DNA of 64,000 nt from Candidatus Sulfomarinibacteraceae bacterium (GTDB taxonomy: Bacteria > Acidobacteriota > Thermoanaerobaculia > Thermoanaerobaculales > Sulfomarinibacteraceae): contig CAWCLO010000001.1 of NCBI GenBank assembly GCA_963796455.1, positions 1 to 64,000 of the forward strand, in the 5' to 3' direction. Position numbers and translations under genes: made by a program. Positions 1,952 to 59,701 of this stretch are shown piece after piece (the first letter of the stretch is position 1; every line of letters starts with the position of its first letter). Below the pieces are notes generated by a model. The model saw nothing but the letters and a program-made list of their open reading frames with translations. It made no database searches and had not been told where the DNA came from.

Positions 1952-2810
1952 CGTCGCAACCACCAAGACACCAAGGCACGAAGACATCGCGAAGCAGCAC
2001 AATTTGCCCGCAGATCACGCAGATAGACGCAGATGACGGCCTCAGCTTCCGGGTTGATCAACGCAAAGGCGCAGAGACGCAGAGGACTTCCCGGCAACAT
2101 CCCCAGTCCGGCGAGATCCTGGCCGTCCAGGGCGGCCAGGTACCGCTGGGTAAGGAAACCGCTCCAAAAACCAGCTTTCGTCACGGTTTCCTTACCCAGC
2201 GGCCTGCGCGACCGCGCAGGTCTCGCCTATCCCCTCCCCTTTCCTTCAATCAAGAATGGGGGTCTTCGATGCAAGGCAGATCCGGCATGCCGGAGGCGTG
2301 CCGGTCGGTGGGGAGCGGGGTGACTCCGAGCGCTGGCGATCGGAGGCGCCCCGCTTCTCACCGGCGACGGGCGATCGGAGATCGTCTGTCGATCTGCCGA
2401 CACTGATGGCAACACCGCACAAGCTCGCCAACCGAGCCTTTGCGTCTCTGCGTCTCTGCGTTCTTTGCGTTCTTTGCGGTTCAACCATGTGCACGCGAGA
2501 CGCGTGCACCACCATGGTGGTGCAGCCGTCCCGGCTGCACTCCGGTCATGCCTATGCGATGGCTTCTGTGTTCTTCTGTGTGTTCTGTGGGCCATTGCGC
2601 CAGCCCTCTGTGTTCCCTCTCTGTGTCTCCGTGCCTCTGTGGTTTTCTTGGTGTGACTCCTTCGTGCCTTTGTGTCTTCGTGTTTGCGACGAGAGCGAGC
2701 GCGATGGATCTGCGTCTATCTGCGTGATCTGCGGGCGTTCTCTCTCTCTGTGCCTCCGTGGTTTTCTCGGTGTGACGCCTTCGTGTCTTTGTGTCTTCGT
2801 AGTTGCGACG
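1952..2810 (+). repeat. Nested inverted-repeat non-coding element, copy 1 (homologous to 58835-59637)
   Basis: Perfect 29-bp IR at 2006-2034/2708-2736; outer 28/32 IR at 1952-1983/2779-2810; multi-hairpin core shared with copy 2. Confidence 0.85.
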
Positions 2811-2826
2811 GGGAAAGGCGCGTGAT

Positions 2827-3687
2827 CTAGATCAACTCGCGGGTGGCGTTGTCCAGATCTTTCAGATCAAAGCGCACCAGGGCGAGTTCGGGACCATCGT
2901 GGGCGGCTGAGAATGCGTGAGTGCGGCCGATGCGCTCGCGCCATTTGCCGGTGATCCGTGCCGACTCGTGGATATGGCCGTGAAGCGTGAGCAAGGGTTG
3001 CCGGTCTTCGATGAAGCGCTTGACGGCAATACTGCCGACATGAAGATCGAGCGGAACATGGTCCACCATCTGGCCATCGAGGGCGGCCCGGTCGAGGGCC
3101 GTTTGGTAAGGCGGTGAGTGAAAGAGCACCACCGTGTCCTCGAGATCCCGGCCCGCGGTCAACCGCTCCAGATCACCAGCGATGGTCCCATACCGAATTT
3201 CATCGGCATCAATCTGCACCGTGCGCTGTCCTTGCTCCGGTGATACGCAGCCGGGATCTGTGAACCTCGATACATCGTAGCGTTCCCAGTCTTTGAGCTG
3301 GAATGGAGTAGGAGGAACGTGTGAATAGCCGAGCACCGGATTTCCCGAGAAGGTGTCCCACACTTCGTGGAGGTAGCACCACAACCCCTCTACCTGACCC
3401 TTCTTGAATTCCTCTTCGCTCAACCGGTCGTCGTCGTTCCCCAATATCAGGAACACTTTCGGCTGATCGTCGCCGAGGCCGCGCCGGATGGTACGAAAGC
3501 CGGCGGCCAATACATCGGCCACGAAGTCGTCGCCGCCTCTCCGCATCGCCCAATGGTGCGGCAGCAGATCACCGCCGAGAAAGACTGCGGCGGGCCGATC
3601 CCGTTGGATGGCGTCAAATAATTTGAAATAGCGATCGTTCCGACCATGAAGATCGGATGCAAAAATGCAATGCGATCCCGAAGTCAC
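2827..3687 (-). CDS. Calcineurin-like metallophosphoesterase (Icc-related)
   Basis: SDLHG, GGDL, GNDD, FHSPP, HGHIHE motifs. Confidence 0.85.
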   Translation of the reverse strand: MTSGSHCIFASDLHGRNDRYFKLFDAIQRDRPAAVFLGGDLLPHHWAMRRGGDDFVADVLAAGFRTIRRGLGDDQPKVFLILGNDDDRLSEEEFKKGQVEGLWCYLHEVWDTFSGNPVLGYSHVPPTPFQLKDWERYDVSRFTDPGCVSPEQGQRTVQIDADEIRYGTIAGDLERLTAGRDLEDTVVLFHSPPYQTALDRAALDGQMVDHVPLDLHVGSIAVKRFIEDRQPLLTLHGHIHESARITGKWRERIGRTHAFSAAHDGPELALVRFDLKDLDNATRELI

Positions 3688-10443: not shown

Positions 10444-10899
10444 CACTCTTGTCCAAGACAGAGTCTCGGATAGCGAACAGGGACAGCGACAGAGATCAGG
10501 AGTCAGCGGCAGCAATCAGTCATCAGCGTCAGTGATCAGCGGCCGGGACAGCGAACAGCATTCACTTCTTCGGGTTCCGGCCTTTGTGGTGCGGCCGTCT
10601 CGGCCGCACGGTGTGCAGGCGAGACGCCTACACCACAACGGCTGTTCCTTCTGTTGAACCACCCGGAGGAGGCCACTTCGTCGCCTGGACTCCTGATCGC
10701 TGCCGCTGAACACTGATCGCTGAACCCGGTCGTCGCTCCCTGTCGCTGTCGCTGGAAACTGTCGCTGCCGCTGCAATTCGGGATCGGGATCGAAATCGGG
10801 TACGGGCCAACCGCGAACCGGATATGCCAAAAACCAACCCGTAAACCACGTGTTGTCAGTTGGCTAACTTCAGGTGGCGATCTGTTTTGGACAGCAGTG
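10444..10899 (-). mobile_element. CACT...AGTG TIR element, gene-less derivative containing a REP-like doublet
   Basis: Ends CACTCTTGTCCAAGACAG / CTGTTTTGGACAGCAGTG flanked by AT within a heptamer array; homologous to 36284-36849 and 57858-58715. Confidence 0.8.
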
Positions 10900-10934
10900 A
10901 TGCAGGATACTGGATGCAGGATGCTGGATGCAGG

Positions 10935-11653
10935 CAGAGTTTCGGATAGCGTGCAGGGACAGCGACGGGGAACGGCGGACAGCGTCAGCGAACGGTTGTC
11001 AGGGTCAGCGATCAGCTATCAACAGCAGCGACGGGTAACAGCGCTCACATTTTCGGGTTCAAGAGCCGCCAGGTCATCGCACGGACCTGATCGAACGCCT
11101 TCATCGCATCAAGGGCGGCTGTTCGGCTGATTGCCCCGGCGTGGGCGAGGAGCATTAAGTGGCTGTCGACCTCTTTGGCCGAGGCGTACGCGATTCTCCA
11201 GTGGTTCAACCGGTCTCTACCGAATCGGCCGTGCCCTTCTGCCAGGTTCGCAGGGACTGAACTTGCCGACCGGATCACCTGATCGGCTATGGACTTCAGT
11301 GGAGCTGGAACCCTCATCACGAGTTTGATCGCAATTCCTGCTGCTTCGAGGGCTTTCGAGTGGGCAGACGAGGTTGGTGTTCGTGGCGGCGTTGGACATG
11401 GTCACCTCCGGGTCGTTCATGCCCATTCCCACAAGCCGGTGTGGCGGCCGATGTCAAGGATGCCCCGCACCCTGCCTGTCCTTGACATCGGCCGCCCACC
11501 GGCTACCCCTTCCTTGGAACGACCCGGAGGTGGCCACTGCGCCGCATGAAATCCAGACTGCTGCCGCTGCTCTCCGTCGCTGAACACTGACCTCTGTCCC
11601 TGTTCGCTGTTTCCTGTCGCTGTCGCTGGACACTGTCGCTGCCCCTGCAAATT
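10935..11653 (-). mobile_element. End-truncated copy of the four-helix-bundle element
   Basis: CAGCGN/NCGCTG arms, 5' leader hairpin and gene homologous to 57858-58715; terminal TIRs missing. Confidence 0.75.
11045..11399 (-). pseudogene. Four-helix-bundle protein (23S-IVP/Avd-like family), frameshifted
   Basis: ADQVIRSASSVPANLAEGHGR..IAYASAKEV motif; one extra base at about 11367 relative to intact paralog 58259-58612. Confidence 0.85.
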
Positions 11654-15251: not shown

Positions 15252-15295
15252 TTTGCTGTTGAAGGAATGGGTCGAATCGCACTTTTCCGAGACGG

Positions 15296-15500
15296 TGTTT
15301 CGGTCAGCGATCAGGGACAGCGATGGGAAACAGCGGACAGCGCTCACGTTTTCGGGTTCAATAGGCGCCAGGTCATCGCACGGACTTGAACGACCCGGAG
15401 GTGGCCACTGCGTCGCCTGTACTCCTGACCGCTGCCGCTGGATACTGACCGCTGTCCCTGTTCGCTGTTCCCTGACGCTGAACACTGTCGCTGCCCCTGA
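15296..15500 (-). mobile_element. Internally deleted remnant of the four-helix-bundle element
   Basis: Gene 3' end (..QVRAMTWRLLNPKT*) joined at about 15386 directly to the upstream GAACGACCCGGAGGTGGCCAC arm. Confidence 0.8.
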
Positions 15501-15521
15501 AATCCTGGCAATGGGATCCAA

Positions 15522-36283: not shown

Positions 36284-36849
36284 CACTCTTGTCCAAGACA
36301 GAGTCTCGGATAGCGTTCAGGAACGGACCTGAAGGTGGGCCTTGGCCTAACTTCAGAGTTGTGCCCCGCTGGCTGCATCACCCAGCCCAGGCGGGAAGTA
36401 TCGGACAGCGATCAGGGGCAGCGGCAGCGAACAGTCGCCAGCGCCAGTGTTCAGTCATCAGCGTCAGCGATCAGCGGCCGGGACAGTGCACAGCACTCAT
36501 TTCTTCGGTAATCCGGCCTTGGTGGTGCGGCCGTCTCGGCCGCACGGTGGGTAGGCGAGACGCCGACACCACAGCGGCTGTTCCTTCTGTTGAACGACCC
36601 GGAGGTGATCACGCCGTCACTGCACCTGATTGCTGCACCTGATCTCTGCCTCTGATCGCTGATCCCTGTCGCTGCCCCTGTTCGCTGTTGCCTGTCGCTG
36701 ACGCTGGACACTGTCGCTGCCGCTGCAATTCGGACGCGGACGCGGACACGGGCACGGGCAACCGCGAACCGGAATTGCCAAGAACCAACCCGTAAACCAC
36801 GTGTTTATCAGTGGGGAAACTCCATGACGATCTTTTTTGGACAGCAGTG
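36284..36849 (-). mobile_element. CACT...AGTG TIR element, gene-less derivative containing a REP-like doublet
   Basis: Same termini, AT flanks and heptamer context as 10444-10899. Confidence 0.8.
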
Positions 36850-36961
36850 ATGCTGGATGCTGGACTACCGCTGTCCAAATACAATTCGTCATGAGGGATC
36901 CAGGATCTAGCATCCAGTATCCAGCATCCTCTTTCCGCGGGAGCCTGTAACATAGCCCCCG

Positions 36962-57766: not shown

Positions 57767-57857
57767 GTGCAGACGCAGCTGGACAACCATAGAGGCACAG
57801 AGAAACGGTGGCCTGCCCACCCGATGCTAGCTAGATACTGGATGCTGGATGCTGGAT

Positions 57858-58715
57858 CACTGCCGTCCAAAACAGGTCGTCACCTGAAGTTTCCCACCTG
57901 ACAACACGTGATTTACGGGTTGGTTTTTGGCATATCCGGTTCGCGGTTGGCCCCTACCCGATCCCGAAGTACAGCGGCAGCGACAGTTGGCAGCGGCAGG
58001 TCCAGCGTCAGCGACAGTTGGCAGCGGCAGTGTCCAGCGTCAGCGACAGGAAACAGCGAACAGGGACAGCGGTCGGTGTTCAGTGTTCAGCGGCAGCGGT
58101 CAGGAGTACAGGCGACGAAGTGGCCACCTCCGGGTCGTTCAAAAGAAAGGGGTAGCCGGTGGGCGGCCGATGTCACGGACAGGCAAGGTGCAGGGCATCC
58201 TTGACATCGGCCACCACACCGGCTTGTGGGTATGGGCATGAACGACCCGGAGGTGACCATGTCCTCAGCCGCCACGAACACCAACCTCGTTGCCCACTCG
58301 AAAGCCCTCGAAGCAGCGGGCATCGCGATCAAGCTTGTGATGAGGGTTCCGGCTCCTCTGAAGTCCATAGCCGATCAGGTAATCCGGTCGGCAAGTTCAG
58401 TCCCCGCAAACCTGGCGGAAGGTCACGGCCGATTCGGTAGAGACCGGTCGAACCACTGGAGAATCGCCTACGCCTCAGCCAAAGAGGTCGACAGCCACTT
58501 GAAGCTCCTCGTCCACGCTGGGGCGGTCAACCGGAATGGAGCCGGTGAAGCGATGAAGGCCTTCGATCAGGTCCGTGCCACGACCTGGAGGCTGCTGAAC
58601 TCGACAGAGTGAGTGCTGTTGGCTGGCGCTGTCGCCGTCCCGGCCGCTGTTCGCTGCCGCTGAATCCTGTCGCTGTCCCCGACCCCTGTCCGAGACCCTG
58701 TCTTGGACAAGAGTG
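57858..58715 (+). mobile_element. Complete four-helix-bundle TIR element (858 bp)
   Basis: CACTGCCGTCCAAAACAG ... CTGTCTTGGACAAGAGTG, AT on both sides inside (GATGCTG)n; opposite orientation to the other copies. Confidence 0.8.
58259..58612 (+). CDS. Four-helix-bundle protein (23S-IVP/Avd-like family)
   Basis: ADQVIRSASSVPANLAEGHGR..HWRIAYASAKEV; GGAGGT RBS. Confidence 0.9.
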   Translation: MSSAATNTNLVAHSKALEAAGIAIKLVMRVPAPLKSIADQVIRSASSVPANLAEGHGRFGRDRSNHWRIAYASAKEVDSHLKLLVHAGAVNRNGAGEAMKAFDQVRATTWRLLNSTE

Positions 58716-58834
58716 ATGCTGGATGCCGGATGCTGAATCCGCCCACCAACCCACACCGTCGCAATCACAAAGACCCAAAGCCATCACAAACCTGCGTCGT
58801 GAGCTCCTGGAGTCGCGTGAACATCTCCGGTTTT

Positions 58835-59637
58835 GCCCACAGATCACACAGATAGACGCAGATGACAGCCATATTGCAGGGGCACAAGCGACCACTGCGA
58901 TCAACTGGCGTCCACATCTCGAGTTCTTAACGCAAAGACGCGAAGGCGCAAAGGCCACCGGACTACCGGATTCGTTTTGCCAAAATGGTTATGAACACAG
59001 AGGCGCAGAGTCGCGGAGACGCAGAGGGCTTACGACAAGAGCCCTCCGCCCGGCGAGGTCCTGGCCGCCATCCGGCAACCAGGTACCGCTGGGTAAGGAA
59101 ACCACCCCAAAAACCAGCTCTCGTCTCGGTTTCCTTACCCAACGGCCTGCGCGACCGCGCAGGCCTCGCCTCCTTCCTCCCCCTTTCTTCAATCAAGAGA
59201 GGATGTCACCGATGCAAGGCAGAACCGGCATGCCGTAGGCGTGCCGGACGGTGGGAAGCGGGGTGACTCCGAGCGCTGGCGCTCGGAGTCACCCCGCTTC
59301 TCACCGGCGACAGGCGATTCTTTGATCGCCTGTCGGTCTGCCGCCATGCTTGGCAACATTGCACAATCTCGGCAACCGCGCCTTTGCGTCTCTGCGTCTC
59401 TGCGTCTCTGCGACTTTGCGTTCTTTGGGTTCTTCGCGTTCTTCGCGGTTTCAGCATGTGCACGCGGGACGCGTGCACCACCATGGTGGTGCGGCCGTCT
59501 CGGCTGCACTTCTCCTCTGCTCCTCTGCTCCTCTGCGTTTTTCTCTGTGTTCTTCCTCTGTGTCTCTGTGTCTCTGTGGTTTTCTTGGTGGTTCAACTCC
59601 TGCGATGGATCTGCGTCTATCTGCGTGATCTGCGGGC
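58835..59637 (+). repeat. Nested inverted-repeat non-coding element, copy 2
   Basis: 27/29 IR at 58835-58863/59609-59637; core 59050-59510 collinear with 2108-2540. Confidence 0.85.
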
Positions 59638-59701
59638 GTTCTTCCTCCGTTGCTGCTCTCGGGTCTCTCTCTGGTGTCTCTGTGCCGCTGTGGTTCGTTC
59701 G

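What the first reader, a model, noticed from the sequence alone, without database searches (positions are those of the whole stretch)
57858..58715. Transposase-less mobile element carrying only a four-helix-bundle gene and targeting heptamer repeats
Seen: three copies with intact ends (10444-10899, 36284-36849, 57858-58715) share imperfect TIRs CACTnnnGTCCAARA / TYTTGGACnnnAGTG. Each reads ..GG-AT[CACT...AGTG]AT-GC.. inside a + strand (GATGCTG)n array, like a 2-bp AT duplication. This copy is inverted relative to the other two while the flanking array keeps its orientation, which is the signature of insertion or inversion. The only cargo is a 117-aa four-helix-bundle protein between inverted CAGCGN arrays. 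Two further decayed copies make five in 64 kb. Established: this family (23S-IVP/Avd-like) has no known catalytic role, and Avd is the nucleic-acid-binding partner of DGR reverse transcriptase. Inference: an undescribed repeat-targeting element, mobilised in trans or with the help of this protein. It splits glpD from glpK here.
Basis: partly seen in the sequence, partly recalled or inferred. Interest (0 to 1): 0.88.

Follow-up and report, generated by a model that had tools for sequence, protein, structure and literature searches.

The report
IS4-ended cassette carrying IVS-protein gene
This 858-base element is one of about 90 scattered copies of a small transposase-less cassette that has the end sequences and 9-base target duplication of an IS4-family insertion sequence, so it was likely moved by that transposase; the surprise is that its only gene, a small protein of unknown function first found inside ribosomal RNA inserts, is kept intact by selection in 58 copies although the jumping does not appear to need it.

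Summary
The element is real and genome-wide: 66 two-ended copies and 90 four-helix-bundle (4HB) loci, 58 intact. The duplication is 9 bp, not 2 bp; a 7-bp array disguises it (21 of 66 perfect, permutation maximum 6). The ends are those of an IS4-family IS (NF033592, probably IS4Sa group). In a congeneric genome its right end is 18/18 identical, and its relatives also make 9-bp duplications. No such transposase was found in this 90.5%-complete assembly. It is therefore a mobile insertion cassette (MIC), likely moved in trans. Heptamer targeting is real but needs no 4HB in cis: gene-less copies and copies with other cargo hit the same arrays, and orientation is random. Two points stay unexplained. 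The 4HB gene is under purifying selection (omega 0.12-0.18) behind a covarying hairpin that covers its ribosome-binding site. The same gene-plus-hairpin rides in ISL3 ends (8-bp duplication) in related genomes. This scan reported both the IS4 and ISL3 forms before, including in this genome; I reached the reading before seeing those notes. New variant of a known kind.

The parts
57830..57857 (+). Left part of the (GATGCTG)n target array; its last 9 bp (57849-57857) are the left target-site duplication
57858..57957 (+). 'A' end: right end (IRR) of an IS4-family IS plus about 80 bp of its subterminal sequence
   Evidence: The 18-bp family consensus is 18/18 identical to the IRR of L095, and this copy is 17/18. 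Positions 19-100 align at score 46 against a shuffle mean of 13.6, with 0 of 500 shuffles reaching it
57972..58105 (+). Degenerate CAGCGN hexamer array (5' arm); the right limit is read by eye
   Evidence: pairs with the 3' arm in the predicted fold
58125..58255 (+). Leader hairpin whose outer stem pairs with the Shine-Dalgarno sequence (58249-58253); predicted to repress translation
   Evidence: -89.2 kcal/mol, z -6.4; 9 of 35 pairs compensated in 20 sequences; arms in 56 and 58 of 58 intact copies; no Rfam family at gathering score
58259..58612 (+). 117-aa four-helix-bundle protein (TIGR02436 / PF05635, S23p/Avd-like fold), antisense to where the transposase lay
   Evidence: model pLDDT 92, TM 0.83 to 2GSC and 0.79 to Avd 4DWL
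58616..58690 (+). Inverted hexamer array (3' arm)
58686..58715 (-). 'B' end: left end (IRL) of the IS4-family IS, about 30 bp
   Evidence: 27/30 identical to the IRL of the IS in L110; IRL consensus of 59 related IS
58716..58740 (+). Right 9-bp duplication (58716-58724) and the rest of the heptamer array
10444..10899 (-). Gene-less copy of the 'hairpin B' subfamily, perfect 9-bp duplication
10932..11650 (-). Decayed copy: frameshifted 4HB gene, leader hairpin kept, ends eroded
15282..15521 (-). Gene-less remnant (arrays and a degenerate B end)
36284..36849 (-). Gene-less 'hairpin B' copy with an extra REP-like insert near the B end, perfect 9-bp duplication

Best explanation
It is a non-autonomous mobile insertion cassette with the two ends and the 9-bp target duplication of an IS4-family insertion sequence, likely cut and pasted in trans by that IS's DDE transposase, and its cargo is an older module (hexamer arms, a hairpin predicted to hide the ribosome-binding site, and a four-helix-bundle gene) that is not required in cis for the jump. 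Shown: shared ends, 9-bp duplications, array preference, random orientation, spread of gene-less copies, and purifying selection on the gene. Inferred: (a) the transposase came from an autonomous copy that is now lost or unassembled; (b) the transposase favours the arrays because each 7-bp step offers an overlapping near-palindromic 9-mer (consensus ATSCWGSAT), as reported for IS50; (c) the module moved from an ISL3 shell into the IS4 shell once; (d) the gene is kept intact by selection on its protein and spread among copies by short-tract gene conversion. What the protein does is not shown. My best guess is an Avd-like pentamer that binds its own structured RNA or DNA.
For: TSD test. The autonomous IS L095 is 1411 bp with NF033592 at 251 bits (cut-off 115), DUF4372 plus DDE_Tnp_1, and D-65-D-102-E with a full YREK motif. 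In 59 of 71 related IS loci both ends were found, and their consensus matches the B and A end consensus at 16/18 and 17/18. Of 50 with both flanks, 8 (6 distinct sites) have a perfect 9-bp repeat and none has a perfect repeat of 4-8 or 10-13 bp. IS4Sa hallmarks (CA------T ends, DR 8-10 bp, 1150-1750 bp) are in PMC2266710 Table 1. Array preference: 25 of 29 motif-matching targets are 7-periodic against 33% expected from intergenic motif sites, p=6e-9; 89 of 167 arrays have no element next to them; the four closest autonomous IS also sit in heptamer arrays. PMC1525189 passage: IS50 targets work best in clusters of overlapping similar sites, and ISRm22 (IS4) targets REPs. Cargo independence. Selection: 427 synonymous, 151 non-synonymous and 72 multi-hit codons in 29 disjoint pairs, omega 0.12-0.18. 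Linkage decays within about 15-40 bp, p=0.002. ISL3 shell. IS4-ended genes form one clade, 98/99 support.
Against: No cognate transposase in this assembly, in the other two genomes with many IS4 ends (G006, G021), or in 5 further genomes. It was found in 1 of 24 congeners, and that genome has only one exact end match. Transposition is therefore inferred, not caught, and may be extinct here (median nearest-copy identity 93.6%). 28 of 66 pairs have more than 1 mismatch in the 9-mer. The passive-cargo view does not itself explain selection on 58 redundant copies, or the 32:5 bias in array orientation at solo B ends. No same-species empty site was obtained. The intergenic mask is crude (9 of 38 flanks fall inside it).
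Confidence: 0.82

Rival explanations
1. The 4HB module is an active selfish unit. Its protein acts in cis on its own hairpin RNA or DNA to copy, convert or protect the module, and it merely borrows IS shells. IS4 transposition is real but secondary. This can hold together with the IS4 origin of the ends.
For: omega 0.12-0.18 over 58 copies; ORFs stay intact where the ends have decayed (21 of 58 with A-end identity under 50% have the same mean ORF identity, 0.894 against 0.896). The same module occurs in two unrelated shells. Covarying hairpin. Avd-like fold. The old proposal that the IVS ORF serves mobility is cited in PMC4990558.
Against: Gene-less copies spread as well as full ones (9 of 23 against 8 of 28 perfect TSDs). 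Private variants are less constrained (pN/pS 0.55). No RT found. Four other 4HB genes in this genome have no IS ends in view and are single-copy. The fold has no known catalytic site (established knowledge, recalled).
Confidence: 0.25
2. Selection acts at host level. Copies are weakly expressed, missense subunits poison a homopentamer that the host uses or must keep harmless, and gene conversion from a few functional copies keeps the rest looking constrained.
For: The closest structures 2GSC and 2RLD are deposited as five chains. Linkage decay points to conversion. Deletions are tolerated: 25 partial loci and 33 gene-less pairs.
Against: Only 7 of 65 full-length genes fail the intact test, while the synonymous divergence would predict about 51 stop differences under neutrality (the intact set has none by construction). 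A poison model would tolerate stops. No expression data.
Confidence: 0.2
3. One reading: a new kind of element with a 2-bp core, moved or inverted by a recombinase, an RT or the 4HB protein.
For: 46 of 66 pairs have a 2-bp match, and both orientations occur.
Against: The 2-bp match is mostly target bias (permutation mean 36.8, maximum 42). Site-specific 9-bp variants are duplicated, and the ends match an IS4 with a DDE transposase.
Confidence: 0.04
4. The heptamer arrays are footprints made by the element (insertion, excision, repair through the AT microhomology, adding 7 bp each round) rather than pre-existing targets.
For: The 9-bp AT-N5-AT geometry would allow it (inference). 78 of 167 arrays touch an end.
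Against: 89 arrays stand apart. The orthologous glpD-glpK spacer of G010 has a related heptamer array and no IS4 end (one case, a different species). An ISL3 with 8-bp duplications also sits in heptamer arrays.
Confidence: 0.1

Closest known systems
Mobile insertion cassettes (MIC231, IS231 subgroup of IS4; PMC6199540, passages read)
   Same: Two IS4-family inverted repeats, no transposase, a passenger CDS, a retained subterminal stretch of the parent IS, and different cargo within the same ends; trans-transposition was shown for MIC231
   Different: Different IS4 subgroup (IS4Sa-like, DUF4372); about 90 copies; cargo is a 4HB gene with its own hairpin and arms; strong array targeting; trans-mobilisation not shown here
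IS4 family, probably subgroup IS4Sa (PMC2266710, passages and Table 1 read); ISRm22 as a repeat-targeting member (PMC1525189, passages read)
   Same: CA------T ends, 9-bp DR, palindromic target, insertion into a dispersed repeat
   Different: No transposase in the element; the target is a tandem heptamer array, not a REP palindrome
ORF-bearing 23S rRNA intervening sequences (Coxiella S23p; PMC4990558, abstract and passages read)
   Same: Same protein family (PF05635), and the gene is enclosed by complementary arms that fold back
   Different: Not in rRNA: the single 23S gene has no 4HB hit. It has IS ends and TSDs, and its ORF is conserved, whereas the Coxiella ORF is reported as decaying
DGR Avd (PMC10053308, passages read)
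   Same: Same fold (TM 0.79 to 4DWL)
   Different: 8% identity; no RT found in the assembly; no TR/VR pair looked for
ISL3-ended 4HB cassettes of related Sulfomarinibacteraceae/Thermoanaerobaculia
   Same: Same gene subfamily (74-88% aa), same leader hairpin and hexamer arms, heptamer-array targets
   Different: GGYTCATCCG ends shared with an ISL3 IS (NF033550), 8-bp TSD; that end pattern was not found in G000, G006 or G021

Membership tests
Mobile insertion cassette (MIC) | Two IS-type inverted repeats | tested here: met
Mobile insertion cassette (MIC) | No transposase gene inside | tested here: met
   858 bp, only PF05635/TIGR02436; no long two-ended copy with a transposase in G000
Mobile insertion cassette (MIC) | One or more passenger CDS, about 0.7-3 kb | tested here: met
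   28 of 66 two-ended copies carry the full gene
Mobile insertion cassette (MIC) | Mobilised in trans by the cognate transposase | not testable with these tools
   A cognate IS exists in a congener, but was not found in G000
IS4 family (the autonomous partner L095) | Single-ORF DDE transposase, D(60-110)D(100-150)E with Y(2)R(3)E(6)K | tested here: met
   Spacers 65 and 102, full motif; NF033592 above cut-off
IS4 family (the autonomous partner L095) | Target duplication of about one helical turn | tested here: met
   9 bp in the cassette and in related autonomous IS; L095 itself has unmatched flanks
IS4Sa subgroup | Ends CA------T, DR 8-10 bp, size 1150-1750 bp | tested here: met
IS4Sa subgroup | Transposase clusters with IS4Sa reference elements | not tested
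   No ISfinder set on hand; the paper's Additional file 3 was not read
ORF-bearing rRNA intervening sequence | Located in a helix of the 23S (or 16S) rRNA gene | tested here: not met
   Intergenic; no 4HB hit in the 23S locus of G000
ORF-bearing rRNA intervening sequence | Encodes a PF05635 protein between complementary arms | tested here: met
ORF-bearing rRNA intervening sequence | Excised from RNA by RNase III | not testable with these tools
   Long stem is predicted only
Diversity-generating retroelement | Reverse transcriptase with the Avd gene | tested here: not met
   PF00078: 0 candidates in G000, which is 90.5% complete
Site-specific recombinase/invertase element with 2-bp core | Only a 2-bp core is repeated at both junctions | tested here: not met
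   9-bp site-specific duplications

The most novel reading that the evidence does not exclude
The S23p/Avd-like four-helix-bundle gene, its RBS-hiding hairpin and its repeat arms form a self-maintaining selfish module. Its protein acts in cis on its own RNA or DNA. The module swaps between unrelated IS shells (ISL3 to IS4) whose transposases home into the heptamer arrays that bracket other 4HB genes. This would give the first function for PF05635 outside DGRs and a route to rRNA intervening sequences.
Probability: 0.22. Interest if true: 0.8.

Novelty: new variant of a known kind. Interest (0 to 1): 0.5.

Why it matters
The transposition side is ordinary IS4 biology. What it adds is a natural experiment on PF05635, a very common protein family with no known function outside DGR Avd. 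One genome holds 58 intact copies under purifying selection, 33 gene-less two-ended controls and four unrelated single-copy paralogues, and there is a defined transposase that should move the cassette in the laboratory. That makes the old proposal that the IVS ORF serves mobility (cited in PMC4990558) directly testable. It also documents IS4 and ISL3 lineages that favour tandem heptamer arrays as targets. I found no report of that in the library searched, which lacks most subscription papers and ISfinder.

Tried and rejected
The only PF01609 hit in G000 (L001) has different ends and is not the partner. IS256, ISL3, DUF4372, NF033592 (one weak fragment, E 0.002) and RT were not found in G000. 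A search for long two-ended copies with a 9-bp repeat gave 6 rows, which were nested cassettes or weak end matches. Repeated segments of 600 bp or more gave no transposase with these ends. No 4HB gene lies inside the autonomous IS loci: 1 of 125 had one adjacent, L208. Same-species empty sites: no run held half of the sampled words, no RNA holder was listed, and the laid contigs did not span the unique flanks, so the joints seen are uninformative. glpD orthologues were found in 1 of 24 congeners at E<=1e-80. No Rfam family matches the leader, and no sigma-70 promoter consensus was found. Branch-by-branch dN/dS was not obtained, so how much selection acts after insertion is bounded only by private variants. 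No complex prediction was run. Rejected: the 2-bp core or invertase model, DGR membership, IVS membership, and 'splits glpD from glpK'.

Full report
Observation. The three copies, their inverted ends and the orientation difference are as described. Five copies lie in the window: 10444-10899 and 36284-36849 (gene-less), about 10932-11650 (frameshifted gene, eroded ends), 15282-15521 (remnant) and 57858-58715 (intact). The ORF 58259-58612 is TIGR02436/PF05635. Its model (pLDDT 92) matches 2GSC (TM 0.83), 2RLD and Avd 4DWL (TM 0.79, 8% identity). glpD and glpK are convergent. In the one congener with a close glpD (1 of 24) the spacer is 340 bp instead of 1935 bp, holds a related heptamer array and has no IS4 end. 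The closest named genomes are Ca. Sulfomarinibacteraceae and other Acidobacteriota MAGs.

Genome-wide family. Two end types give 252 matches (98 A, 154 B) against 2 in the reversed genome. There are 66 A-B pairs under 1 kb: 28 with the full gene, 5 partial, 23 gene-less of one subfamily and 10 other gene-less. The gene subfamily has 90 loci: 58 intact, 7 full-length but failing my intact test, and 25 partial. Four other PF05635 genes are single-copy and lie between inverted repeat arrays of other units. The exact end pattern is abundant in 3 of 77 family genomes (94, 72 and 45 hits) and rare in 14 more.

The duplication is 9 bp. At 9 bp, 21 of 66 pairs are perfect and 38 have at most one mismatch; pairing flanks at random gives a mean of 2.8 and a maximum of 6 in 300 permutations. 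No pair is perfect at 4-8 or 10-15 bp, and 4 are perfect at 16 (9+7). Site-specific variants are duplicated, also outside heptamer arrays. A second genome gives 14 of 28 perfect at 9 bp. Because 9 = 7 + 2, a heptamer array makes this look like an AT duplication.

The ends are IS4. A family-wide IS4 search turned up a 1411-bp IS in congener G017 (L095). Its right end is 18/18 identical to the A-end consensus, and its left end resembles the B end. Similarity of the A end runs on for about 100 bp (0 of 500 shuffles as high), and the B end is 27/30 identical to the left end of a related IS in L110. The transposase is NF033592, DUF4372 plus DDE_Tnp_1, with a full YREK motif. Of 80 metagenomic relatives I examined 71 and left out 9 truncated matches. 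Both ends were found in 59, and their consensus matches the B and A ends at 16/18 and 17/18. Of 50 with both flanks, 8 (6 distinct sites) show a perfect 9-bp repeat and none a perfect repeat of 4-8 or 10-13 bp; the low rate may reflect collapsed assemblies. End motif, DR length and size fit IS4Sa in Table 1 of PMC2266710 (passages read); its supplementary end alignments were not read, so the subgroup is provisional. The structure fits the definition of a mobile insertion cassette (PMC6199540, passages; MITE and tIS terms in PMC9330008, passages). Against this reading: no cognate transposase was found in G000 (90.5% complete), in G006 or G021, or in 5 further genomes. Copies are also old (median nearest-copy identity 93.6%, maximum 99.1%), so the family may be inactive here.

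Targeting. The symmetrised target is ATSCWGSAT. 28 of 38 reconstructed targets are 7-periodic, as are 25 of the 29 that match the motif, against 33% of intergenic motif sites (p=6e-9; crude mask). Orientation is random (11 against 15). 89 of 167 arrays have no end beside them. The four closest autonomous IS also sit in heptamer arrays. Periodic flanks are 5 of 27 among relatives of at least 60% identity, 2 of 81 below that, and 0.08% in control. PMC1525189 (passages) reports ISRm22 (IS4) targeting REPs, and that IS50 sites work best in clusters of overlapping similar sequences, which a heptamer array provides. I infer the same cause here. The protein is not needed in cis. The 23 gene-less copies share one replacement junction and have 9 perfect duplications, against 8 of 28 for full copies. 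Eight loci from G021, G008, G024 and G020 carry the same ends around REP-like palindromes with no 4HB hit; 7 of the 8 have at most one mismatch in the 9-mer, and the eighth had its right end called at an inner copy. A role of 4HB in trans is not excluded.

What remains odd. (1) Selection. Mean pairwise dN/dS over 58 intact genes is 0.14. In 29 disjoint pairs there are 427 synonymous, 151 non-synonymous and 72 multi-hit codons, giving omega 0.12-0.18 after correcting for the mutation spectrum. The set was chosen as intact. Private variants are less constrained (pN/pS 0.55). Two other genomes give 0.27 and 0.19 on top-hit samples, which are biased towards intact genes. ORFs stay intact where the ends have eroded, and linkage decays within about 15-40 bp (p=0.002), which suggests gene conversion among copies, though recurrent mutation could contribute. 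(2) A 130-nt hairpin pairs with the Shine-Dalgarno sequence (z -6.4), is compensated at 9 of 35 pairs in 20 related sequences and has no Rfam family. (3) The same gene and hairpin sit between ISL3 ends in related genomes. 26 of 39 loci have both ends, with 6 perfect and 17 near-perfect 8-bp duplications and none at 4-7 or 9-11 bp. An autonomous ISL3 with these ends lies in a heptamer array in G017. That end pattern occurs in 21 of 77 genomes and in none of the three IS4-rich ones. In a 43-gene tree the IS4-ended genes form one clade (98/99) among ISL3-ended ones; the root is only a midpoint, so the direction is inferred. The named genomes and the G handles may overlap and are not counted as independent.

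Comparison and verdict. It works like MIC231 and is filed as a MIC, with trans-mobilisation untested. It is not an rRNA intervening sequence (no 4HB in the 23S locus), though it shares the protein and the fold-back layout. PMC4990558 (abstract and passages) cites both the transposition-remnant and the ORF-for-mobility hypotheses. It is not a DGR; PMC10053308 (passages) notes the PF05635-Avd likeness. Searches (listings only, apart from the papers named) found no description of this cassette or of heptamer-targeting IS; the library is incomplete. Earlier notes of this scan describe the same IS4 and ISL3 cassettes, including in this genome (seen), and the wider link between 4HB genes and heptamer arrays. 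They are unchecked and are not independent support. Verdict: a new variant of a known kind, interest 0.5, carried by the unexplained conservation of the gene and the shell swap.

Noticed in passing
G000 genome-wide: Solo B ends are flanked by the heptamer array in one orientation 32 times against 5 (p=7e-6), whereas two-ended copies show no significant bias; unexplained.
   Followed up: partly
window 2036-2763 and 58840-59640: A second dispersed, gene-less mosaic family of about 600-700 bp (8- and 9-mer arrays plus palindromes) with many copies at 85-93% identity in the genome.
   Followed up: no
window 59484-59510; 90 motif hits in G000: The 'hairpin B' palindrome that replaces the gene in 23 copies is itself a dispersed repeat.
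   Followed up: partly
window 36864-36929: A short degenerate A-end remnant followed by an inverted heptamer array, right after the 36284-36849 copy.
   Followed up: no
L105-L108 (G000 C4:1278094, C1:983149, C9:2726, C10:733004): Four unrelated single-copy PF05635 genes, each between inverted arrays of a different 6-8-bp unit; the same units form arrays in the window (for example 8551, 33873, 61329).
   Followed up: partly
L245-L249 (G021), L254 (G008), L255 (G024), L257 (G020): The same IS4 ends carry REP-like palindromes instead of the 4HB module (the REP label is recalled, not tested).
   Followed up: partly
L208:948-2250 and 2516-3186 (G017): An autonomous ISL3 in a heptamer array directly beside a 4HB cassette with one ISL3 end: a possible snapshot of capture.
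   Followed up: partly
L001:1290-2670 (G000 C7): A single-copy DDE_Tnp_1 IS with its own long inverted repeats, flanked by a longer direct repeat; unrelated to the cassette.
   Followed up: no
window 58170-58215: Both arms of the inner leader stem contain a TTGACA-like hexamer facing outward, with no -10 consensus nearby.
   Followed up: no
L036, L071, L088: Near-identical cassettes in MAGs labelled Alphaproteobacteria and Myxococcota: horizontal transfer or mis-binning.
   Followed up: no
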